DNA from: a virus
Lineage: Duplodnaviria > Heunggongvirae > Uroviricota > Caudoviricetes
Direction: 5' to 3' (one strand)
Length of the DNA: 46,410 nt
IMG/VR virus record: IMGVR_UViG_2721755497_000002
Coordinates: 1-46,410 of that record
The notes below the pieces were generated by a model that was not told the origin of the DNA, did not search any database, and worked only from the letters and a program-made list of their open reading frames with translations. A program made the position numbers and the translations under genes. Positions within the stretch are counted from its first letter, which is position 1, and every line of letters begins with the position of its first letter. This document shows, piece by piece, positions 982-23,339 of this stretch.

Positions 982-1063
982 AAATTCAATCACTTACACA
1001 TCATTAAGTCAGTGACAAAAATCACACTTGGAATTACTTGGAATATTTTCTTGGAATATTTTC
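982..1063. repeat. attL candidate: tRNA 3' flank with tandem direct repeats (CTTGGAAT x3, including TTGGAATATTTTC x2) overlapping the int 3' end; possible arm-type Int binding sites
   Basis: Direct repeats visible at about 1027-1063, immediately between the tRNA and the integrase stop codon. Confidence 0.3.
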
Positions 1064-2059
1064 AGGTAACGGGACATCAAGTGTTGGTGAAACTTTAACC
1101 TTCCTGTCATAGATTAGCACTTGCCCTTCGGTTTTGTGACCAGAGAAAAGTTGCTTATCCCGGCTGCTTCCTTCATAGTCTGAAATTCCTTTCGCCTTCA
1201 GATCATGAAAGGTGAAGTCGGATAAAATACCTGAAATTTTTCCAGCACGATTTCTTGCTTCTACCCACATTTCGTTAAAGCCTTTGTACATATATCGGTT
1301 GCCGTATTGATTGCTGATCACATAGGCAGATTTTGGTAACTGTTTTGCTTTTTCGATCGCTGCCTGTAATCGTGGACTCCATGCTTTTATCTGTTTTTTT
1401 CCGGTTTTCCCTTGCTGGATGAATATCCCGTCGTTTCCAATCTGTTCCCATTTCAGCGATAACACATCGGAAACCCTCGCTGCACACAGATAGGCAATTT
1501 CCATTGCGATAAAAACAGGAAGAGGTGCAACGCTTAATACTGCCTGGTATTCTTTGTCGGTTACATATCGTTCGCGGTTTTTGGCCTTGAATTTACTTAC
1601 ACCTGCACATGGGTTAGCCTTGACGTACCCTCGCTCATACCCCCAACTGTAAACACGGGACATACTGCTTTTTTCATGGTTGGCTTGCGTTTTACTCTGC
1701 TCCCCTCTTTTGTCCATGTATCGACGGATGTGTTCTGGTTTTATGGAATCCGCTGGTACCTTACCGAATACGGCAAGCAACTTTTTTTGATGTTGCAGAT
1801 AATCTTTTTGTGTTCTTGGACTAAGGTCACTGTAATAGGCGCTGGCGAGGAATTTTTCCCACAAGCGACCGAATGTCATTGCACGATCGCGATTATTTAC
1901 AGTTTCCTCATACTTTTTCCATAAAGCAGCTAAACCATCCTTGATGGCGGTTAGTGTGACAGATTCTCTGGATGTTGGTTTCCATACATAACTATATTTA
2001 TTTGGGTATACATTTGGAGGTAATTTTTCGTGTTCAGGATTTTTCCTTCGTCTTCCCAT
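1034..2059 (-). CDS. int: Tyrosine integrase, lambda Int family
   Basis: 341-aa ORF; N-terminus MGRRRK...LPPN resembles lambda Int; directly adjacent to the tRNA integration site. Confidence 0.9.
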   Translation of the reverse strand: MGRRRKNPEHEKLPPNVYPNKYSYVWKPTSRESVTLTAIKDGLAALWKKYEETVNNRDRAMTFGRLWEKFLASAYYSDLSPRTQKDYLQHQKKLLAVFGKVPADSIKPEHIRRYMDKRGEQSKTQANHEKSSMSRVYSWGYERGYVKANPCAGVSKFKAKNRERYVTDKEYQAVLSVAPLPVFIAMEIAYLCAARVSDVLSLKWEQIGNDGIFIQQGKTGKKQIKAWSPRLQAAIEKAKQLPKSAYVISNQYGNRYMYKGFNEMWVEARNRAGKISGILSDFTFHDLKAKGISDYEGSSRDKQLFSGHKTEGQVLIYDRKVKVSPTLDVPLPENIPRKYSK

Positions 2060-5406: not shown

Positions 5407-5459
5407 GGGCGGCAGAGCAGTCACGGAGTAAAACTGATACCGCCAAACGTCACCAGAAA
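5407..5459 (-). ncRNA. dicF: DicF small RNA (Hfq-dependent, represses ftsZ)
   Basis: Reverse complement reads TTTCTGGTGACGTTTGGCGGTATCAGTTTTACTCCGTGACTGCTCTGCCGCCC followed by a U-tract; lies between ydfC and dicB as in Qin. Confidence 0.8.
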
Positions 5460-6622: not shown

Positions 6623-6901
6623 TTAGGGAAACTGGCGTCTTGCGTGGATCACGTTTACTACTTCAACGCTTGATGTTGTTACGCGGTATAGAATTATATA
6701 GTTAGGGTGGGCCACAATCTCACGCAAGCCAGGTACTCTGTCGCTTGGTGGGTATAAATACGGATGTTCGGATAATGGCAGCACACAACCCCTTAATCGC
6801 TGCCATAAGCGTTCAGCCGCATCTACGTCGAAACGAGCAATATAACTAGTTATATCATCTAGGTCGGTATCTGCGCTTTCAAGCCATAACACGGGTAACA
6901 T
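6623..6901 (-). CDS. ParE/RelE-family type II toxin (candidate)
   Basis: About 92 aa from internal Met (MLPVLWLESADTDLDDITSYIARF...IHARRQFP); size and composition typical of ParE/RelE toxins; start is 1 nt after the stop of the upstream small gene. Confidence 0.65.
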   Translation of the reverse strand: MLPVLWLESADTDLDDITSYIARFDVDAAERLWQRLRGCVLPLSEHPYLYPPSDRVPGLREIVAHPNYIILYRVTTSSVEVVNVIHARRQFP

Positions 6902-6902
6902 T

Positions 6903-7094
6903 TTACTGCTTGCTCCGTTCCTTCCGCATTTTAGCAAAGCGTTCTGCCATTCTGCGCTCAACTTCGTCATGGGGAATTGCTGGGCGCGGATCTGCAAGGC
7001 TTGTTGCTACTTTCGCACGCAGCCATTCGTTGTAACTGTTTTCTTGTTCAATGGTTTCAAATTCAGAAACCATTGGTGAAAGGGCTCTATTCAT
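6903..7094 (-). CDS. Cognate antitoxin candidate (small DNA-binding protein)
   Basis: 63 aa from internal Met (MNRALSPMVSEFETIEQENSYNEWLRAK...); GGAGG Shine-Dalgarno 4 nt upstream; immediately upstream of and coupled to the toxin gene. Confidence 0.55.
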   Translation of the reverse strand: MNRALSPMVSEFETIEQENSYNEWLRAKVATSLADPRPAIPHDEVERRMAERFAKMRKERSKQ

Positions 7095-13821: not shown

Positions 13822-14088
13822 TTTTATACCTTTTGTGTTGTGTGAACGATGAGTATAGTCAGAAATGAGACTGTGAAGGGGGATAGAAAATAATAGTTTG
13901 TTTTTGTAGAATCGCTGCGGGTGCTTGGGGCTATCTGTCTCAGGCATGAACACCAAAAGGCAGATAGAGAAAAGCCCCAGTTAACATTACGCGTCCGGCA
14001 AGACGCTTAACATTAATCTGAGGCCATATCTATGACTTGCACGCGTAGGTTAGCCTCTTACGTGCCGAAAGGCAAGGAGAAGCAGGCT

Positions 14089-14244
14089 ATGAAGCAGCAA
14101 AAGGCGATGTTAATCGCCCTGATCGTCATCTGTTTAACCGTCATAGTGACGGCACTGGTAACGAGGAAAGACCTCTGCGAGGTACGAATCCGAACCGGCC
14201 AGACGGAGGTCGCTGTCTTCACAGTCTACGAACCTGAGGAGTAA
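14089..14244 (+). CDS. hokD: Hok/Gef-family type I toxin
   Basis: Internal Met of ORF 14032..14244 gives MKQQKAMLIALIVICLTVIVTALVTRKDLCEVRIRTGQTEVAVFTVYEPEE, a near match to HokD/RelF as recalled; upstream in-frame extension is consistent with a mok-like leader. Confidence 0.8.
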   Translation: MKQQKAMLIALIVICLTVIVTALVTRKDLCEVRIRTGQTEVAVFTVYEPEE

Positions 14245-15747: not shown

Positions 15748-16125
15748 ATGACTGAACGCATAGAATTTGTTTTGCCTTACCCGCCGACGGTGAATACCTA
15801 CTGGCGACGTCATGGCAATACGTATTTCATCTCGGAGGCCGGAAAGCGTTATCGCCGTGATGTGGCGCTAATTGTTCGCCAGCAGCGGCTGAAATTAAAC
15901 CTGTCCGGAAGGCTGGCAATAAAAATTACTGCAGAGCCGCCGGATAAGCGCCGTCGGGACCTGGACAATATCCTGAAAGCACCGCTGGATGCACTGACGC
16001 ATGCGGGGCTTCTCATAGACGACGAGCAGTTTGATGAAATCAATATTGTGCGCGGTCAGCTCGTTCCTGGTGGGCGACTGGGCGTGAAGATTTGCGAAAT
16101 CAGAGGTGATGGTAATGGGGCGTGA
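15748..16125 (+). CDS. rusA: RusA Holliday junction resolvase
   Basis: 125 aa; motifs PPTVNTYWR and RRRDLDN...LDAL...AG match the RusA family. Confidence 0.85.
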   Translation: MTERIEFVLPYPPTVNTYWRRHGNTYFISEAGKRYRRDVALIVRQQRLKLNLSGRLAIKITAEPPDKRRRDLDNILKAPLDALTHAGLLIDDEQFDEINIVRGQLVPGGRLGVKICEIRGDGNGA

Positions 16126-16465
16126 TATGTATGAGGTTTTAGATCGCTGGGGGGCATGGGCTGCAGCAGAAAATAGCGGTGTCGATTGGCAACCGATAGC
16201 AGCGGGCTTCAAGGGGCTTTTGCCACATGGCAAAAAGTCACGTCTCCAGTGTGATGATGATGAAGGCATCATGATAGACGGTTGTGTGGCTCGGTTGCGA
16301 AAGTATAAACCAGAGGAATATGAGCTGCTCATAGCTCACTTTGTTATTGGTGTTTCTCTACGCTCAATCGCGAAGAAACGCAGGTGCTCAGATGGAACTA
16401 TAAGAAAGGAGCTGCAAACTGCATTAGGCTTTATTGATGGATGTATATGCTTGATTCTATCATAA
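16115..16465 (+). CDS. Late antiterminator Q (QuuD / phage 82 Q family)
   Basis: ORF 16106..16465; LDRWGAWAA...IAAGFKGL...RLQCDDDEG...DGCVARL resembles QuuD; likely start ATG 16115 after GAGGTGA. Confidence 0.75.
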   Translation: MGRDMYEVLDRWGAWAAAENSGVDWQPIAAGFKGLLPHGKKSRLQCDDDEGIMIDGCVARLRKYKPEEYELLIAHFVIGVSLRSIAKKRRCSDGTIRKELQTALGFIDGCICLILS

Positions 16466-16478
16466 GTTATGACTGTTA

Positions 16479-16865
16479 CTACTCGTTTGCTTGAGCTTTC
16501 GATTCGGCGTCAGATAAAGCATCAATACGAATATTTATGTTTTTTAATAGCTTATTGTCTAGATCGATAAGACATTGGTTGTAGTGCGCAATTTGGTCTG
16601 GTGTTAGGTTAGGGTTGGCCAGGCAGTTCGTGATGAATTTTCTGGCCGTTTTTATTTCCCTTTTCATTCTTACATCATTAAGCGTAGGCAAACCTATGTA
16701 AGCGATAAGAAGAATTACCACATGAGATAAGCCGACAGCAGCTCCAGGCGCCAATGATTTGAAGAAGGCTAATTGAGGAAGCCAGTCAAAAAGGAAATTC
16801 AATCCCGCAGTGATAAGGGTGGTAAACCATGCCTGCATTGCCAGGTAGGATTTAGTGTTCGCCAT
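16479..16865 (-). CDS. Uncharacterised membrane protein (cargo gene 3 of 3), two predicted TM helices plus helical C-terminus
   Basis: 128-aa ORF; hydrophobic segments WFTTLITAGLNFLF and VGLSHVVILLIAYIGL; start abuts stop of upstream gene; convergent with Q, 13-bp gap. Confidence 0.6.
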   Translation of the reverse strand: MANTKSYLAMQAWFTTLITAGLNFLFDWLPQLAFFKSLAPGAAVGLSHVVILLIAYIGLPTLNDVRMKREIKTARKFITNCLANPNLTPDQIAHYNQCLIDLDNKLLKNINIRIDALSDAESKAQANE

Positions 16866-17111
16866 TCACCTTCCTGCACTTGCTTCGTTGCGAGTTTTGA
16901 GTTCGCGTAGCAGTAGCGCCAACTCTTCTGCGTCATTTTCGTTTCTAACGCTGACTTTCCTTTTAGCGGTTCTGCCTTCAGGATCGGTGTAGGTTAGTTC
17001 AATATACGCATTCGGCTTTACCCAAACCAAGAACCTAAGCACAGCATATCTGACCGTCGCTGCGACAGCCATGAATACAGTGATGTAAAGCATAATGCTT
17101 AGGATTGACAT
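16866..17111 (-). CDS. Uncharacterised small membrane protein (cargo gene 2 of 3), one N-terminal TM helix
   Basis: 81-aa ORF; ILSIMLYITVFMAVAATV hydrophobic segment; translationally coupled to neighbours. Confidence 0.6.
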   Translation of the reverse strand: MSILSIMLYITVFMAVAATVRYAVLRFLVWVKPNAYIELTYTDPEGRTAKRKVSVRNENDAEELALLLRELKTRNEASAGR

Positions 17112-17114
17112 GAT

Positions 17115-18026
17115 TTAAAGTAGTTTCCTATCTGCCGCCGCTCTGTGGCGTATAACCTTAGTAATACTATAGCGTGGTTTAGACAGCGCGCCATTTGTTT
17201 CTTTTGTTGTTTCTGTCAGTTCTACAACAAAAAGATCACCCTTACAGAATGCTGCTTGGTTGTGTTCAACCCGTTCAAGAAAAGCCTCATCTTTCATAGA
17301 TGCGCTAACTTCTTCGCCATTTGGCAGGATGATATCCCAGCTTTTGCCTTGCTTGAATCGAACATTAGCAAAATGTACATTAGCTTGGCGTGTCGTTACG
17401 TGCGTTTTCTCGACAAAGGTGGATTTTGCAGTTTTAAAACTTACTGCTTCAGCTTGCGTCACCCTGACTACCTTATGCTTCTGCTGTGAAACTGAGAACG
17501 TGGATGGTTTTTCAGTCTGCAGGGGTTTATAGATTAATTTATCCAGTTCTTTTCGGATGATTGGACTGGTTATTAATTTTTGAATGTCGTTACTGCATTT
17601 AACCTTCTCACCATCCACTTCGATTTCTGCTGTATCTTTTTGTTCATCGACGACAATGGAGCTGATTTTACGCCCTTTGAGCCATTCGATTATCCCGAGT
17701 ACGCCACCTGCGGCAACTCCACCACCTGCAACGAGGCCAAGGGCGTTAATAGTTTTTATGCTCCCCATCACAGCAACAAGCAAAGTAAATGAACCTTCTT
17801 TTGTTGCCTTGATGTTGACTTTCGGCTCTGCTGTTTCGCCATTAATTATTTTTTCGGCGTGTTCAATCAGGGCACTAAGAGAGGTTAAGGCTTCGCCTAA
17901 TGTTTTCGCGTCGATCTGATTATCTGCGTATGCCTCTCCACCGTAGGCAATTTCGATTTCTGTTATTGGCATGTTTTCGAGTTGCTGCGTCATCAAAAGC
18001 ATCCTTTGCGCAAGAGAAATAGCCAC
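17115..18026 (-). CDS. Uncharacterised protein (cargo gene 1 of 3) with central Gly/Ala-rich hydrophobic segment
   Basis: 303-aa ORF (track start is GTG; probable true start ATG at 17993 after AAGGA, giving 292 aa); hydrophobic LLVAVMGSIKTINALGLVAGGGVAAGGVLGII; no recognisable catalytic motif. Confidence 0.6.
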   Translation of the reverse strand: MAISLAQRMLLMTQQLENMPITEIEIAYGGEAYADNQIDAKTLGEALTSLSALIEHAEKIINGETAEPKVNIKATKEGSFTLLVAVMGSIKTINALGLVAGGGVAAGGVLGIIEWLKGRKISSIVVDEQKDTAEIEVDGEKVKCSNDIQKLITSPIIRKELDKLIYKPLQTEKPSTFSVSQQKHKVVRVTQAEAVSFKTAKSTFVEKTHVTTRQANVHFANVRFKQGKSWDIILPNGEEVSASMKDEAFLERVEHNQAAFCKGDLFVVELTETTKETNGALSKPRYSITKVIRHRAAADRKLL

Positions 18027-18115
18027 AGGATACAGATAATTATGAAAAAATCACTAACGCGTACGCAAAAACTATCTTAATCTGTTAAGAGTGGTCGCTT
18101 CGCCACACAACTTAA

Positions 18116-18140
18116 ACCCGCATCAAGCGGTTTTTTTTGT
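18116..18140 (+). terminator. Weak intrinsic terminator (CCGCatcaaGCGG + T8) upstream of the tRNA cluster; possible tR'
   Basis: Short GC stem followed by eight T residues on the plus strand. Confidence 0.35.
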
Positions 18141-18243
18141 GCCACTTATCTCGGATAGACATGGTGAATGCGCTGGTGGAGGAGATAAGGGTGATTTTTG
18201 AATGCTTGCAACATTGATTTCGTAACGTTATTATCCTGCGCCC

Positions 18244-18319
18244 GGCCCTTTAGCTCAGTGGTGAGAGCGAGCGACTCATAATCGCCAGGTCGCTGGTTCA
18301 AATCCAGCAAGGGCCACCA
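18244..18319 (+). tRNA. tRNA with CAU anticodon (Met or lysidine-dependent Ile2; ileZ-like phage tRNA)
   Basis: 76 nt GGCCCTTTAGCTCAGTGGTGAGAGC...ACTCATAATCG...GGTTCAAATCCAGCAAGGGCCACCA; canonical cloverleaf. Confidence 0.8.
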
Positions 18320-18326
18320 TCTCATA

Positions 18327-18403
18327 CCGCCATTAGCTCATCGGGACAGAGCGCCAGCCTTCGAAGCTGGCGGCGCGGGGTTCGGGTCCTCGATGGCGGT
18401 CCA
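18327..18403 (+). tRNA. tRNA-Arg, anticodon UCG (argN-like phage tRNA)
   Basis: 77 nt; acceptor CCGCCAT/ATGGCGG, anticodon loop CTTCGAA, T-arm CGGGG-TTCGGGT-CCTCG, CCA end. Confidence 0.75.
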
Positions 18404-18416
18404 TTATCTGCACCAT

Positions 18417-18490
18417 GCGGTCATCGTATAATGGCTATTGCATCAGCCTTCCTGGCTGATTATGCGGGGCAATTCCCGCTGACCGCTCCA
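18417..18490 (+). tRNA. tRNA-like element, argO-like but degenerate (non-canonical anticodon loop CTTCCTG and shortened T-loop GCAATT)
   Basis: Acceptor GCGGTCA/TGACCGC with CCA end; anticodon and T-loops deviate from consensus; may be a pseudo-tRNA. Confidence 0.4.
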
Positions 18491-18675
18491 TAGTGGATTA
18501 TGGGTACTGTATGTTAAGCATTTTTCTTCGTTACCCTTCATCGGTAAAAAAGCGTACAACAACTATTTATGCTGCCATTAGCGATGATAGTATAGTTACT
18601 GGTTCTTTCGTAGTGTGTTTATTTGTTTGCTATATTTTTATCGATAATTGACATTCTTCAGATGGGGATGAATAA

Positions 18676-19104
18676 ATGTATTGCCGTGGTTTGCCAGTTC
18701 TTGTTTTGATATTCGCCTGCCTGGCAGCAGGCTGCACAAAAGATGTATCAACAAATTATCATGATAGTGCGCCATATCACGCAGGTGAATTAACAAAGGT
18801 TAAGAATGTTAATCCATCTGAAAGTACTGCTGATGTTAGTGAAGACATTCGTCATTATGCCGGTCAAATCAAAAAAGCCATTGAAGAACAGTTCAGGGAA
18901 CCGGGTAAGTATTCCGGGAAAGTGTGTTCACTGAGAATGAATATGGCTCCGAATGGTCTTCTGTTGCAGGTTAAAAGAGAAGGTGGAGACCCCGATTTAT
19001 GTCGTGAAGCGATGAATGCGGTGAAGCATGCTGATATACCAGCACCGCCGTCTCCGGAAGTATATAAAGTATTTCACAATGGAGTGCTGGATTTTAAACC
19101 GTGA
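18676..19104 (+). CDS. Lipoprotein carrying a TolA C-terminal (domain III)-like domain
   Basis: 142 aa; signal peptide with lipobox LAAGC; C-terminal 85 aa (YAGQIKKAIEEQF...GKVCSLRMNMAPNGLLLQVKREGGDPDLC...IPAPPSPEVYKVFHNGVLDFKP) closely parallels E. coli TolA domain III as recalled. Confidence 0.7.
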   Translation: MYCRGLPVLVLIFACLAAGCTKDVSTNYHDSAPYHAGELTKVKNVNPSESTADVSEDIRHYAGQIKKAIEEQFREPGKYSGKVCSLRMNMAPNGLLLQVKREGGDPDLCREAMNAVKHADIPAPPSPEVYKVFHNGVLDFKP

Positions 19105-19304
19105 TTCTACATCTTTGCAGTAAACAATAATCATAATTGCATGTTTTTTCTGTGGTGGGGCATTTGGCTTCTGTTGCCTGCGATGTATTGTGGACCTGGT
19201 ATCAGCCTGCAGAAAATGCACACAGGTGTGAAGTGTTAAATTCCTCACAACTCAGAACGCAGAATGTTGTCCTGCTTGCGGGGAATTTGTTAAAAGAGTA
19301 CAGC

Positions 19305-19423
19305 ATGGTGAATCCCCCTGAGCGGAGGGGCATAATGACAGATGTTTGGTCGTGTTATCGTATAGGCAAGTTGCGGATTCTGTCTGGTCATTGCAGAATT
19401 CACCGGGAGGCACCCGGCACCAT
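19305..19423. repeat. Repeat unit copy 1 (about 119 bp): ATGGTGAATCCCCCTGAGCGGAGGGGC ... CACCGGGAGGCACCCGGCACCAT with two GC-rich hairpins
   Basis: Termini shared with copy 2 and mutually reverse-complementary (ATGGTG / CACCAT). Confidence 0.45.
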
Positions 19424-19558
19424 GTATTTTCAATATGTTATTGATCATTCTCTTTTTCGGAATACTCTGGTTATGTTTTCCTGTAACTGATAATTAAATC
19501 ACATTTTGTGTAACTGCATATTGTCTGAACGGGATAAGTTTCAGTATCTTCTGAATGT

Positions 19559-19678
19559 ATGGCGAATCCCCCTGTGCGGCGGGGCGTACTGATTTAAGTA
19601 GTCATCCAAGAATGCAGCTGAATGAAAACGCGCTCCATATTAATCAGTGGTGGAGCACCGGGAGGCACCCGGCGCCAT
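19559..19678. repeat. Repeat unit copy 2 (about 120 bp): ATGGCGAATCCCCCTGTGCGGCGGGGC ... CACCGGGAGGCACCCGGCGCCAT
   Basis: Same terminal hairpin modules as copy 1, divergent interior. Confidence 0.45.
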
Positions 19679-19707
19679 ACCGATGATGAAAGTAAATGCG
19701 TCCATCC

Positions 19708-19732
19708 GCCCCTCTCCGGAGGGGCTTTTTTA
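19708..19732 (+). terminator. Strong rho-independent terminator (GCCCCTCtccgGAGGGGC + TTTTTT) upstream of nanS-p
   Basis: 7-bp GC stem, 4-nt loop, T-tract. Confidence 0.6.
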
Positions 19733-19913
19733 TGGGCAAAAAAAGCCCGCTACGAATGGTAACGGGCTGCACAAAATAACAAAATGTGAAGTATTCTAAT
19801 CAGCCGCTGAATAATACCCGACAGTAATTAATCTGTGCAACGGTGCTTTTTCCCGCCTTGCAGGCACCGACTCTCTCATTTGATTTAACGCATTATCCCG
19901 TCCGGGAGGATTC

Positions 19914-22585: not shown

Positions 22586-22801
22586 ATGTACCAGATGGAA
22601 AAAATCACAACAGGTGTGTCATACACCACGTCTGCGGTGGGGACGGGATACTGGTTTCTGCAGTTGCTGGACAGGGTATCCCCGTCTCAGTGGGCGGCAA
22701 TAGGCGTGCTGGGGAGTCTGCTGTTTGGTCTGCTGACGTACCTGACCAACCTGTATTTTAAAATCAGAGAGGACCGGCGCAAGGCGGCGCGGGGAGAATG
22801 A
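22586..22801 (+). CDS. Holin, phage 21 S21-like pinholin with dual-start motif
   Basis: 71 aa [26 protein letters not shown]...[22 protein letters not shown] resembles S21; GGGAGG Shine-Dalgarno; two Met within first four codons. Confidence 0.8.
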
Positions 22802-22805
22802 ACTG

Positions 22806-23339
22806 GTGAGTAAAAAACTCCGCTACGGTTTATCTGCGATCGTTCTGGCGCTGATTGCCACAGGTGCTTCTGCGCCTGAAATCCTTGACCAGTTTCTGGA
22901 TGAAAAGGAAGGTAACCACACCACGGCATACCGTGATGGCGCGGGTATCTGGACTGTCTGCCGGGGAGCCACTCGGGTGGATGGCAGACCTGTAGTTCCC
23001 GGTATGAAGCTGACGAAGGAAAAATGCGCTCAGGTTAATGCCATTGAACGGGATAAGGCACTGGCATGGGTGGAGAAAAATATCAGAGTGCCACTGACCG
23101 AACCGCAGAAAGCGGGGATAGCGTCATTCTGCCCGTACAACATTGGTCCCGGTAAGTGTTTTCCGTCGACGTTTTATAAACGAATTAATGCAGGTGATCG
23201 AAAAGGTGCCTGTGAGGCGATTCGCTGGTGGATTAAGGATGGTGGCAGAGACTGCCGTATTCGCTCAAACAACTGCTACGGTCAGGTGTCCCGTCGTGAC
23301 CAGGAGAGCGCGCTGGCGTGCTGGGGAATCGACAGATAA
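22806..23339 (+). CDS. SAR endolysin (T4 lysozyme-like muramidase with N-terminal signal-anchor-release domain)
   Basis: 177 aa; GTG start; N-terminal Gly/Ala-rich hydrophobic SAR segment LSAIVLALIATGASA; resembles phage 21 R21. Confidence 0.85.
   Translation: MSKKLRYGLSAIVLALIATGASAPEILDQFLDEKEGNHTTAYRDGAGIWTVCRGATRVDGRPVVPGMKLTKEKCAQVNAIERDKALAWVEKNIRVPLTEPQKAGIASFCPYNIGPGKCFPSTFYKRINAGDRKGACEAIRWWIKDGGRDCRIRSNNCYGQVSRRDQESALACWGIDR

What the first reader, a model, noticed from the sequence alone, without database searches (positions are those of the whole stretch)
18244..18490. Phage tRNA cluster: CAU tRNA, Arg(UCG), and a degenerate third tRNA-like element
Two canonical tRNAs are followed by a third with good acceptor stem and CCA but an anticodon loop CTTCCTG (pyrimidine at position 37) and a 6-nt T-loop GCAATT lacking the TTCRA consensus. 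It looks like an argO-type tRNA that has decayed or been repurposed, perhaps as a tRNA-derived regulatory RNA or processing signal.
Basis: seen in the sequence. Interest (0 to 1): 0.45.

Follow-up and report, generated by a model that had tools for sequence, protein, structure and literature searches.

The report
Decaying glycine tRNA in prophage cluster
The odd third element is a damaged copy of the glycine tRNA (anticodon UCC) that many lambda-like prophages carry next to their isoleucine and arginine tRNAs. It is not a decayed arginine tRNA, and it is most likely a dying gene in a decaying prophage rather than a new kind of RNA.

Summary
18244-18319 is tRNA-Ile2(CAU) and 18327-18403 is tRNA-Arg(UCG). 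18417-18490 is a 74-nt cloverleaf with a 7-bp acceptor stem, U73-CCA, anticodon loop CUUCCUG (U37, G38) and a 6-nt T loop GCAAUU.

The element is not argO-type (54% identity). It is a homologue of tRNA-Gly(UCC): 87% identical to host glyT and 88-92% to prophage copies. RefSeq annotates it as tRNA-Gly. Rfam scores it 42.8 bits, against about 63-65 for intact copies. ARAGORN cannot see it, solely because of the T loop.

The argO-type Arg(UCU) gene is absent. Its loss from an ancestral Ile2-Arg(UCG)-Arg(UCU)-Gly cluster is inferred, since such a cluster exists elsewhere with the same 3' flank.

Among 130 homologues the 6-nt T loop is unique, and the U37G38 loop occurs three times: one otherwise intact copy, one with a broken acceptor stem, and this one. 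Changes specific to the window's lineage are as dense in the gene as in the non-coding flank. The prophage has a frameshifted integrase and tail fibre.

Best reading: a pseudogenising tRNA-Gly (about 0.7). All helices remain paired, so a residual or altered function cannot be excluded. Interest is low.

The parts
18206..18234 (+). Sigma-70-type promoter-like element TTGCAA-17 nt-TATTAT, ending 9 nt upstream of the first tRNA. Presumed promoter of the tRNA cluster.
   Evidence: Consensus scan. The scan alone is no more than chance: 1 site found against 1.4 expected. The same hexamers and spacing are kept upstream of 123 of 143 homologous Ile2 genes despite spacer variation.
18244..18319 (+). 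tRNA-Ile2 (anticodon CAU, ileZ-type).
   Evidence: ARAGORN. Rfam 72.5 bits. PGAP tRNA-Ile. Identical to the gene in Stx2 phage PA12 and phage 606R7.
18327..18403 (+). tRNA-Arg(UCG), argN-type, with T loop TTCGGGT (G58) and a private variable-loop G.
   Evidence: ARAGORN. Rfam 51.3 bits, against 54.8 for PA12 argN. Variant table of 117 homologues.
18404..18416 (+). 13-nt spacer TTATCTGCACCAT. It equals the usual argN-argO spacer with one change. Its last 7 nt also equal the 3' end (GCACCA) plus 1 nt of the Arg(UCU) gene that precedes Gly in related clusters. It is the junction left by the inferred loss of the Arg(UCU) gene.
   Evidence: Comparison with PA12, the O157:H16-type clusters, 117 argN downstream flanks and the four-tRNA cluster L232.
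18417..18490 (+). Degenerate tRNA-Gly(UCC) gene, 74 nt, all four helices intact.
   Evidence: Rfam 42.8 bits. PGAP tRNA-Gly. 86.7-92% identity to tRNA-Gly(UCC) genes. Not called by ARAGORN.
18448..18454 (+). Anticodon loop CUUCCUG: anticodon UCC, U37, G38. C32-G38 and A26-U44 can extend the stem to 7 bp with a 5-nt loop.
   Evidence: Sequence. Minimum-free-energy fold. The loop is CUUCCAA in 125 of 130 homologues and CUUCCUG in 3.
18469..18474 (+). 6-nt T loop GCAAUU, lacking T54/Psi55 and with A at position 57. Alternatively a 6-bp stem (G.U) with tetraloop CAAU.
   Evidence: Sequence. Unique among 130 homologues, of which 123 have TTCGATT. Restoring this loop alone makes ARAGORN call tRNA-Gly.

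Best explanation
The third element is a pseudogenising copy of the phage-borne tRNA-Gly(UCC) gene. This gene is a glyT homologue that many lambdoid prophages carry at the 3' end of the tRNA cluster between the Q antiterminator and the lysis genes.

Inferred history, in order:
1. An ancestral cluster Ile2(CAU)-Arg(UCG)-Arg(UCU)-Gly(UCC) lost the Arg(UCU) gene. The likely route was recombination across the near-repeat GCA(T/C)CATGCG that flanks it.
2. The Gly gene belongs to a rare allele lineage with A37U/A38G.
3. In this prophage it then picked up A24G, C26A, G45U and a three-change lesion of the T loop (loss of one T, T to G, G57A).

Shown:
- homology to tRNA-Gly(UCC)
- the derived state and uniqueness of the lesions
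- a divergence rate equal to that of the non-coding flank
- a defective prophage background

Inferred:
- The element is still co-transcribed with the two upstream tRNAs from the conserved promoter.
- It is probably still cut by RNase P, since the acceptor and T helices and the CCA are intact.
- Without the T54-A58/Psi55-G18 elbow and without a purine at 37, the product is unstable or useless in decoding GGA/GGG. It therefore contributes little or nothing to translation.
For: 1. Identity. It is 86.7% identical to host glyT, 88% to O157:H16-type prophage Gly, 92% to the U37G38 allele L026, and only 53.8% to argO. PGAP labels it tRNA-Gly.

2. Lesions at otherwise invariant sites. Among 130 homologues the T loop is TTCGATT in 123 and never 6 nt except here. 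The anticodon loop is CUUCCAA in 125. In intact copies, stems vary by compensatory changes, which shows what a constrained copy looks like.

3. Score loss. Rfam gives 42.8 bits against 62.7-64.9 for intact copies. ARAGORN fails at every threshold, and an in-silico T-loop repair rescues the call.

4. No visible purifying selection. Changes specific to the window's lineage number 8 of 75 in the gene and 20 of 168 in the adjacent non-coding flank (Fisher p=1.0).

5. Relatives are decaying too:
   - The other U37G38 copy, L022, has four broken acceptor pairs plus G54.
   - The copies sharing this 3' flank, L018 and L232, carry G38 plus stem mismatches and score 46.6 and 38.2 bits.
   - G54 occurs only in copies with broken acceptor stems.

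6. The cluster and prophage are eroding:
   - Arg(UCU) is absent here.
   - argO is truncated in 20 of 117 other clusters.
   - The integrase and tail-fibre genes are frameshifted.

7. Demand has not gone away. GGA+GGG make up 41% of the prophage's Gly codons against 25% in a host sample, and AGA+AGG 17% against 3%. The loss therefore looks like decay rather than adaptation.
Against: All four helices remain fully paired, and the two in-stem changes preserve pairing. Under random substitution, the chance of breaking no pair depends on how events are counted:
- 0.01-0.02 for 9 events
- 0.05-0.08 for 6 events
- 0.13-0.18 for 4 events

This is a weak-to-moderate hint of constraint on the fold.

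Other points against simple decay:
- The nucleotides known as GlyRS identity elements (G1:C72, C2:G71, G3:C70, U73, C35, C36; established knowledge) are all intact.
- One otherwise perfect gene carries the same U37G38 loop (L026; ARAGORN calls it, Rfam 55.5 bits). That loop alone need not be inactivating.
- The 'neutral' flank used for calibration is itself conserved among relatives and may not be neutral.
- Only two near-identical genomes (E. coli M1 and M3) carry this allele, so no covariation test is possible.
Confidence: 0.7

Rival explanations
1. It is still a working, unusual tRNA-Gly(UCC). The anticodon-loop change A37U/A38G would be an adaptive variant, for example making the phage tRNA insensitive to an anticodon-arm nuclease of a competing defence system. 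The T-loop change would be tolerated.
For: - The U37G38 loop is shared by three copies in three different cluster contexts, one of them otherwise perfect (L026).
- The GlyRS identity nucleotides, acceptor stem and CCA are intact.
- Published work proposes that phage tRNAs carry anticodon-loop changes that evade host tRNA nucleases (PMC10264068).
- P2-OLD, which acts against lambda, cuts tRNAs that share an invariant A37 and CNG motifs at 28-30 and 40-42 (PMC12445682). The glyT-type arm has C28-A29-G30, C40-U41-G42 and A37, and this allele has U37.
- A candidate defence gene (PADLOC PDC-S42, E=3e-53) lies directly upstream of the cluster.
Against: - tRNA-Gly is not among the P2-OLD substrates named in that paper's text, and I found no nuclease reported to target tRNA-Gly(UCC).
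- Two of the three U37G38 copies carry further damage.
- The allele is extremely rare: 1 of more than 120 copies in IMG/VR, 1 metagenome contig, and 2 of 5,426 E. coli genomes.
- A 6-nt T loop without T54/Psi55 removes the elbow contacts used by RNase P, the CCA-adding enzyme and the ribosome (established knowledge).
- C32-G38 and A26-U44 allow the loop to close to 5 nt.
- The divergence rate equals that of the flank.
Confidence: 0.14
2. It is a repurposed tRNA-like RNA. One version is a processing and insulation module: RNase P and 3' trimming at a tRNA-shaped hairpin set would release the Arg tRNA and define the 5' end of the downstream transcript. Another version is a decoy or sponge for a tRNA-binding protein. 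Either way it would be selected for its helices and not for decoding.
For: - The substitutions spare the helices.
- Two of the changes (C26A, A38G) add Watson-Crick pairs to the anticodon arm, and the T arm can become a 6-bp hairpin with a tetraloop.
- No intrinsic terminator was found between it and the downstream conserved region and gene, so it probably lies inside a longer transcript.
Against: - Any intact tRNA in this position would provide the same processing sites, so no change is needed for that role.
- There is no conservation of the altered loops beyond one clone.
- The relatives' copies decay in different, stem-breaking ways.
- The statistical signal is weak and post hoc.
Confidence: 0.1
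3. One reading: a decayed argO-type tRNA-Arg(UCU).
For: - It occupies the argO slot directly after the argN-argO spacer.
- The loop CTTCCTG superficially resembles the argO loop CTTCTGA.
Against: - 53.8% identity to argO against 87-92% to tRNA-Gly(UCC).
- The D arm, T stem, acceptor stem and discriminator are all glyT-type.
- Related clusters have both Arg(UCU) and this Gly gene side by side.
Confidence: 0.01
4. Sequencing or assembly artefact in the T loop.
For: The defect includes a 1-nt length change.
Against: - The lesion is a deletion plus two substitutions, not a homopolymer slip.
- Two separately assembled genomes, M1 and M3, are identical over the region.
Confidence: 0.01

Closest known systems
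ileZ-argN-argO tRNA cluster of Stx-converting lambdoid phages (for example phage PA12, KP682376; 933W-type)
   Same: - Same place in the genome, downstream of Q and upstream of the moron/lysis region.
- Same promoter-like element.
- Ile2(CAU) gene identical.
- Arg(UCG) gene differs at two positions.
- Same 13-nt spacer after argN (one change).
   Different: The third gene there is Arg(UCU). Here that gene is missing and a Gly(UCC)-type gene follows the spacer. Here a TolA-C-domain lipoprotein gene sits where stx sits.
Prophage Arg(UCU)-Gly(UCC) clusters (E. coli O157:H16 Res13-Lact-PEA12-26, JKHS016, SHP24, 2012C-4221) and the four-tRNA cluster L232 (IMG/VR)
   Same: - The Gly gene has the same GCGGTCA acceptor 5' strand.
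- The same 'GCACCAT' precedes it.
- The roughly 160-nt 3' flank is homologous, with 12% window-specific differences over 168 alignment columns.
- STnc100 lies downstream.
   Different: The O157:H16-type copies are canonical (62.7 bits). The window copy has 9 differences from them, including U37, G38 and the 6-nt T loop, and it lacks the Arg(UCU) gene. L018 and L232 copies are damaged in other ways.
E. coli glyT (tRNA-Gly UCC, thrU-tyrU-glyT-thrT-tufB operon)
   Same: - 86.7% identical.
- Same anticodon, D arm, anticodon stem and T stem.
- Same discriminator and GlyRS identity nucleotides.
- Some prophage copies are 100% identical to glyT.
   Different: G5:C68 is replaced by U5:A68. Also A24G, C26A, A37U, A38G, G45U, and T loop TTCGATT replaced by GCAATT.
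Nuclease-resistant phage tRNAs (anticodon-loop or anticodon-arm variants; PMC10264068; phage tRNA-Thr against P2-OLD, PMC12445682)
   Same: A phage-borne isoacceptor that differs from the host's in the anticodon loop, including loss of A37, a feature shared by P2-OLD substrates.
   Different: No nuclease is known to target tRNA-Gly(UCC). The resistant tRNAs in those studies are otherwise functional, whereas this one also has a defective T loop. This is a resemblance only and was not tested.

Membership tests
Canonical bacterial elongator tRNA (Rfam RF00005) | Score at or above the family gathering threshold (29 bits) | tested here: met
   42.8 bits, E=1.8e-8 when the region is searched alone. 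Not reported in the whole-window scan.
Canonical bacterial elongator tRNA (Rfam RF00005) | Cloverleaf helices: 7-bp acceptor, D stem, 5-bp anticodon stem, 5-bp T stem | tested here: met
   All pairs are standard except the U13.U22 mismatch, which every homologue has. The fold has z=-4.3.
Canonical bacterial elongator tRNA (Rfam RF00005) | 7-nt anticodon loop with U33 and a purine at position 37 | tested here: not met
   The loop is CUUCCUG. U33 is present, but position 37 is U (18453). 127 of 130 homologues have A37.
Canonical bacterial elongator tRNA (Rfam RF00005) | 7-nt T loop with T54-Psi55-C56 and A58 | tested here: not met
   The loop is GCAAUU, 6 nt. It is unique among 130 homologues and is the sole cause of ARAGORN's failure.
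Canonical bacterial elongator tRNA (Rfam RF00005) | Aminoacylation and use on the ribosome | not testable with these tools
   Needs tRNA-seq, an acid-urea northern or genetic complementation.
tRNA-Gly(UCC), glyT type | Anticodon UCC | tested here: met
   TCC at 18450-18452. PGAP labels it tRNA-Gly.
tRNA-Gly(UCC), glyT type | Sequence homology to glyT and prophage Gly genes over the whole length | tested here: met
   86.7% to glyT, 88% to L015, 92% to L026.
tRNA-Gly(UCC), glyT type | GlyRS identity nucleotides G1:C72, C2:G71, G3:C70, U73, C35, C36 (set taken from established knowledge) | tested here: met
   All are present in the sequence. Charging itself was not tested.
argO-type tRNA-Arg(UCU) | Anticodon UCU and homology to argO | tested here: not met
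   The anticodon is UCC. Identity to PA12 argO and to O157:H16 Arg(UCU) is 53.8%, no better than to unrelated tRNAs.
Lambdoid late-region tRNA cluster (ileZ-argN-argO type) | Located between the Q antiterminator and the lysis genes, headed by Ile2(CAU) with a conserved promoter-like element | tested here: met
   Q at 16115-16465 (Pfam PF06530). Holin and lysozyme at 22586-23339. Promoter-like element.
Lambdoid late-region tRNA cluster (ileZ-argN-argO type) | Presence of all three genes ileZ, argN and argO | tested here: not met
   argO is absent. Only the spacer and junction remain.
Nuclease-evading phage tRNA | Anticodon-loop or anticodon-arm substitution relative to the host isoacceptor | tested here: met
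   A37U and A38G relative to glyT.
Nuclease-evading phage tRNA | A nuclease that cuts the host isoacceptor and spares the variant | not tested
   None is known for tRNA-Gly(UCC). tRNA-Gly is not named among P2-OLD substrates in the text of PMC12445682.
Nuclease-evading phage tRNA | An otherwise functional tRNA body | tested here: inconclusive
   The helices and identity elements are intact, but the T loop is defective.

The most novel reading that the evidence does not exclude
The CUUCCUG (U37/G38) allele is a selected phage tRNA-Gly(UCC) lineage that escapes a still unidentified anticodon-arm nuclease of the P2-OLD/Toprim or HEPN kind, whose substrates need A37. The window's copy, with both arms turned into tighter hairpins, would be either a still-chargeable variant or a tRNA-shaped decoy for that nuclease. 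It would be kept next to a candidate defence gene (PDC-S42).
Probability: 0.07. Interest if true: 0.6.

Novelty: new member of a known kind. Interest (0 to 1): 0.17.

Why it matters
The practical value is mainly for annotation.
- A RefSeq 'tRNA-Gly' in E. coli M1 and M3 is very probably not a working tRNA.
- Different tRNA finders disagree about it for one identifiable reason, the 6-nt T loop.
- It should not be counted when inferring a prophage's decoding capacity.

The case also gives a small, clean picture of how lambdoid prophage tRNA clusters erode:
- a whole gene (Arg(UCU)) is missing, and its loss between near-repeats at tRNA boundaries is the inferred cause
- the terminal Gly gene has decayed stepwise, with an inferred ancestral architecture and differently damaged sister copies recoverable from public data

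If the minority reading were true, with U37 as a nuclease-evasion change, it would add tRNA-Gly to the list of tRNAs fought over by phages and defence systems. Nothing here demonstrates that.

Tried and rejected
1. Exact scan for the odd T arm (TGCGGGGCAATTCCCGCTG). There were 0 hits in IMG/VR. There were 9 hits in GTDB genomes, all in unrelated taxa with no tRNA context, so they are chance matches.

2. Scan for the anticodon arm (TCAGCCTTCCTGGCTGA) in IMG/VR. Of 7 hits, 6 were chance palindromes and only L022 was tRNA-like.

3. Hypothesis that the 'GCACCAT' before the element proves a remnant of a tRNA-Thr gene (from the Thr-Gly clusters). I rejected this in favour of the Arg(UCU)-Gly junction and the argN-argO spacer once the closer relatives were found.

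4. Compensatory change U5:A68 as evidence of selection in this lineage. Rejected, because GCGGTCA/TGACCGC is an ancestral allele shared by at least 17 canonical copies.

5. Integration-site origin, with the 3' half of the tRNA replaced by an attP copy. Rejected, because the 3' flank continues colinear with relatives for about 160 nt.

6. Literature:
   - Searches for ileZ/argN/argO found nothing usable.
   - 'PDC-S42' gave no papers.
   - A lambdoid tRNA-Gly/Thr search returned only unrelated papers.
   - The P2-OLD supplementary table listing all cleaved tRNAs is not held, so whether tRNA-Gly(UCC) is a substrate could not be checked.
   - HepS (PMC13043305) targets Thr, Ile and Ser tRNAs, not Gly.

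7. Staphylococcal cell-wall tRNA-Gly species with non-standard T loops (recalled from memory) were considered as an analogy. I dropped it, since E. coli has no Fem-type transferases and nothing here points that way.

8. ARAGORN with lowered thresholds (95% to 70%) never recovers the element. At 70% it only adds spurious overlapping calls.
Full report
**Where the window comes from.** The window is identical to E. coli strain M3 (mouse isolate, NZ_CP010183.1, 4074694-4121103), and strain M1 carries the same sequence. It is a lambdoid prophage integrated next to a tRNA-Ser gene. RefSeq annotation places the finding between the Q antiterminator (16115-16465; Pfam Phage_antitermQ, E=3.8e-45) and the holin and lysozyme genes (22586-23339). 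This is the position where Stx phages carry ileZ-argN-argO and stx. The prophage is defective in at least two genes, since the integrase (1009-2059) and a tail-fibre gene (44098-45505) are frameshifted.

**Checking the observation.**
- tRNA 1 (18244-18319, anticodon CAU) scores 72.5 bits with Rfam's tRNA model. ARAGORN calls it Met(cat). PGAP calls it tRNA-Ile (Ile2).
- tRNA 2 (18327-18403) is Arg(UCG), 51.3 bits.
- The third element (18417-18490, 74 nt) has these parts:
  - a perfect 7-bp acceptor stem, discriminator U and CCA
  - a 5-bp anticodon stem with loop CUUCCUG (anticodon UCC, U at 37, G at 38)
  - a 5-bp T stem with the 6-nt loop GCAAUU

The third element is not a chance hairpin set. 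Rfam RF00005 gives 42.8 bits (E=1.8e-8) when the region is searched alone. The fold has z=-4.3, with none of 200 shuffles as stable.

The tools disagree about it.
- ARAGORN does not call it at any threshold down to 70%.
- The whole-window Rfam scan at gathering threshold did not list it, although its score exceeds the threshold. Speed filters are the likely cause.
- RefSeq/PGAP annotates it as tRNA-Gly with no pseudogene flag.
- In-silico edits show the T loop alone explains ARAGORN's failure. Restoring TTCGATT, or merely adding one T, gives a tRNA-Gly(tcc) call. Restoring the anticodon loop does not. Putting the window's T loop into a canonical copy abolishes the call.

**What it is.** It is not argO-type. 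Global identity to Stx2-phage argO and to the O157:H16-type Arg(UCU) is 53.8%, the same as to any other tRNA in the cluster. Identity is 86.7% to host glyT, 88% to the closest prophage tRNA-Gly(UCC) and 92% to a metagenomic allele, L026. Host glyT was confirmed as the gene in the thrU-tyrU-glyT-thrT-tuf operon. Some prophage copies are 100% identical to it.

tRNA-Gly(UCC) is a common last member of lambdoid late-region tRNA clusters. About 900 of 5,426 complete E. coli genomes have a prophage-type copy that aligns past the gene's 5' end into the upstream tRNA. ARAGORN on the fetched loci gives these architectures:

| Architecture | Count |
|---|---|
| Ile2-Arg(UCG)-Arg(UCU) | 67 (plus 8 at contig edges) |
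| Ile2-Arg(UCG) | 38 (plus 5 at contig edges) |
| Thr-Gly | 33 |
| Ile2-Lys-Thr-Gly | 23 |
| Ile2-Arg(UCU)-Thr-Gly | 12 |
| Arg(UCU)-Gly | 6 |
| Ile2-Arg(UCG)-Arg(UCU)-Gly (L232) | 1 |

**How the window's arrangement arose.** Twelve E. coli prophages share the window's 3' flank (about 85% identity over about 250 nt). They carry Arg(UCU) immediately followed by Gly(UCC), in the form ...GGCGCACCA-T-GCGGTCATCG.... In Stx-type clusters argN is followed by the spacer TTATCTGCAT(C/T)AT and then argO (GCGTTG...). The window reads ...argN-TTATCTGCACCAT-GCGGTCATCG.... That is the argN-argO spacer with one change, fused at GCA(C/T)CATGCG to the start of the Gly gene. L232 has all four genes and the same 3' flank as the window. 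The simplest history is therefore loss of the Arg(UCU) gene from a four-tRNA cluster, by recombination across the short near-repeat at its two boundaries (inference). Erosion at this spot is common, since 20 of 117 argN-bearing contigs have argO truncated after about 10 nt.

**Is the Gly gene functional?** I collected 130 copies (24 distinct sequences) of phage, prophage and host tRNA-Gly(UCC).
- In intact copies the stems vary by compensatory changes: G5:C68, U5:A68, U5.G68 and C5:G68; C6:G67 and U6:A67; T stems GCGGG/CCCGC, GTGGG/CCCAC, ACGGG/CCCGT and CTCGG/CCGAG.
- The loops are nearly frozen. The anticodon loop is CUUCCAA in 125, CUUCCAG in 2 and CUUCCUG in 3. The T loop is TTCGATT in 123, TTCGATC in 3, TTCGACT in 1, GTCGATT in 2 and GCAATT in 1, the window.
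- The two GTCGATT copies both have broken acceptor stems.
- The three CUUCCUG copies are the window, L026 and L022.
  - L026 is otherwise perfect. ARAGORN calls it and Rfam gives 55.5 bits.
  - L022 has four acceptor pairs broken plus G54, and neither tool calls it.

Relative to the O157:H16-type relatives the window has nine differences: A24G, C26A, A37U, A38G, G45U, loss of one T-loop T, T to G, G57A and G68A. All are derived states when judged against glyT and the other prophage copies. G38 is shared with L018 and L232. U5:A68 is an ancestral allele present in canonical copies.

Rfam scores fall stepwise:

| Copy | Rfam bits |
|---|---|
| Canonical copies | 62.7-64.9 |
| L026 | 55.5 |
| L018 | 46.6 |
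| Window | 42.8 |
| L232 | 38.2 |

In a three-way comparison, window-specific changes number 8 of 75 in the gene and 20 of 168 in the adjacent non-coding flank (Fisher p=1.0). The gene has therefore diverged as fast as its flank in this lineage.

The prophage still over-uses the relevant codons:

| Codons | Prophage | Host sample |
|---|---|---|
| GGA+GGG, share of Gly | 41% | 25% |
| AUA, share of Ile | 16% | 5% |
| AGA+AGG, share of Arg | 17% | 3% |

Loss of Arg(UCU) and damage to Gly(UCC) therefore look like decay, not relaxed demand. With the frameshifted integrase and tail fibre, the picture is a grounded prophage whose accessory tRNA cluster is eroding from its 3' end.

**Mechanistic expectation (inference from established tRNA biology).**
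- The conserved T loop forms the T54-A58 reverse-Hoogsteen pair. Its Psi55 and C56 bond with G18 and G19 to build the elbow. A 6-nt loop GCAAUU cannot form this motif. It may instead close as a 6-bp stem with a tetraloop.
- Position 37 is almost always a purine that stacks on the codon-anticodon helix.
- C32-G38, a Watson-Crick 32-38 pair of the sort natural tRNAs avoid, together with A26-U44, lets the anticodon arm fold as a 7-bp helix with a 5-nt loop. This is the minimum-free-energy structure.
- The element is probably still transcribed. A TTGCAA-17-TATTAT element lies at 18206-18234, and the same hexamers and spacing are kept in 123 of 143 homologous clusters. No terminator-like site was found up to 18750.
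- It is probably still recognised at its acceptor and T helix by RNase P. The product is expected to be unstable or useless for decoding.

**What keeps the verdict from being certain.** None of the changes breaks a base pair. By simulation the probability of that depends on the ancestor chosen and on how the clustered T-loop changes are counted:
- 0.01-0.02 for nine independent events
- 0.05-0.08 for six events
- 0.13-0.18 for four events

The GlyRS identity nucleotides are intact. One otherwise perfect gene (L026) carries the same U37G38 loop.

Published work proposes that phage tRNAs carry anticodon-loop changes that evade host tRNA nucleases (PMC10264068). P2-OLD, the effector of P2-lambda interference, cuts tRNAs sharing an invariant A37 and CNG motifs at 28-30 and 40-42 (PMC12445682). 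The glyT-type arm has CAG, CUG and A37, and this allele has U37. That is a lead, not evidence, for three reasons:
- tRNA-Gly is not named among the substrates in that paper's text.
- Its full table was not available.
- I found no nuclease reported to target tRNA-Gly(UCC).

I therefore give about 0.7 to pseudogenisation, about 0.14 to a still-functional unusual tRNA, about 0.1 to a repurposed tRNA-like RNA, and about 0.01 each to the argO reading and to a sequencing artefact.

**Comparison with what is known, and novelty.** The cluster is a member of the well-known lambdoid late-region tRNA clusters.
- tRNA genes downstream of Q are reported in lambdoid phages (PMC3636060).
- Two tRNA-Arg genes plus one CAU tRNA lie around stx2a in Stx2 phages (PMC7946995).

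The Ile2-Arg(UCG)-Gly order is rare, found in 2 of 5,426 complete E. coli genomes. The allele with a 6-nt T loop is unique in the data searched. As a kind of thing, though, it is a degenerate member of a known tRNA gene family that is already annotated as tRNA-Gly in RefSeq. Interest is low. The useful outcomes are a corrected identity (Gly, not Arg), a warning about the annotation, and a clear example of stepwise tRNA-cluster erosion.

Noticed in passing
window 16479-18026 (- strand): Three minus-strand ORFs (128, 81 and 303 aa) are inserted between Q and the tRNA cluster. The 303-aa product matches the PADLOC candidate defence family PDC-S42 (E=3.3e-53). It has no Pfam match, and no literature was found. 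It is a candidate anti-phage gene directly beside the tRNA cluster.
   Followed up: partly
window 18676-19104 (+): A 142-aa predicted lipoprotein (sequence LAAGC) with a TolA C-terminal domain (Pfam PF06519, E=1.8e-23). It sits where stx lies in Stx phages and is absent from the closest relatives, which run straight from the conserved 3' flank into STnc100. It could be a moron affecting Tol-dependent colicin or phage entry.
   Followed up: partly
window 19274-19478 and 19529-19737 (+): Two tandem copies of the sRNA family STnc100 (118.9 and 98.5 bits) lie downstream of the tRNA cluster. Relatives have one copy at the same relative position, and one relative also has a weak AsxR-like match.
   Followed up: no
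L002, L022, L026, L037, L038, L039, L069, L126 (second tRNA slot); window 18327-18403: The second slot of these clusters keeps an argN-like body, but its anticodon arm is hypervariable. It reads UCG, UUU or UCU, or has irregular or short loops that ARAGORN reads as Leu(UAA), Leu(UAG), Phe(AAA) or '???'. This may be serial decay or anticodon switching.
   Followed up: partly
window 18327-18403: The window's Arg(UCG) gene has T loop TTCGGGT (G at position 58, normally A), seen in 5 of 117 homologues. It also has a private variable-loop G. Rfam gives 51.3 bits against 54.8 for the Stx-phage gene. It may be starting to decay too.
   Followed up: partly
window 18091-18201 (+): PGAP annotates a 36-aa 'antiterminator' fragment just upstream of the tRNA promoter, in addition to the full Q gene at 16115-16465. 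In phage 606R7 the same upstream sequence follows a different, full-length Q. The tRNA module probably arrived by recombination with another Q-type late region. A T-run after a short GC hairpin at about 18120-18140 may be the old tR'.
   Followed up: no
window 1009-2059 and 44098-45505: The integrase and a tail-fibre gene are annotated as frameshifted pseudogenes, so the prophage is probably no longer able to excise or to make infectious particles.
   Followed up: no
window 18417-18490, whole-window Rfam scan: Method note. Rfam's gathering-threshold scan of the whole 46-kb window did not report this 42.8-bit tRNA match, although the threshold is 29 bits. It appeared only when a 126-nt stretch was searched. 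Degenerate tRNAs can be lost to the speed filters.
   Followed up: yes
window 5407-5458 (-), 6623-7094 (-), 13919-14244 (+): DicF sRNA, a relBE pair and a sok/hokD module are present, giving a Qin-like early region.
   Followed up: no
window 18491-18655 (+): The roughly 160-nt region after the Gly element is conserved (about 85-88%) among the related prophages, although it is non-coding by annotation. It contains a 52-aa GTG-start ORF with no Pfam match. It may belong to a processed 3' trailer or a small gene.
   Followed up: no
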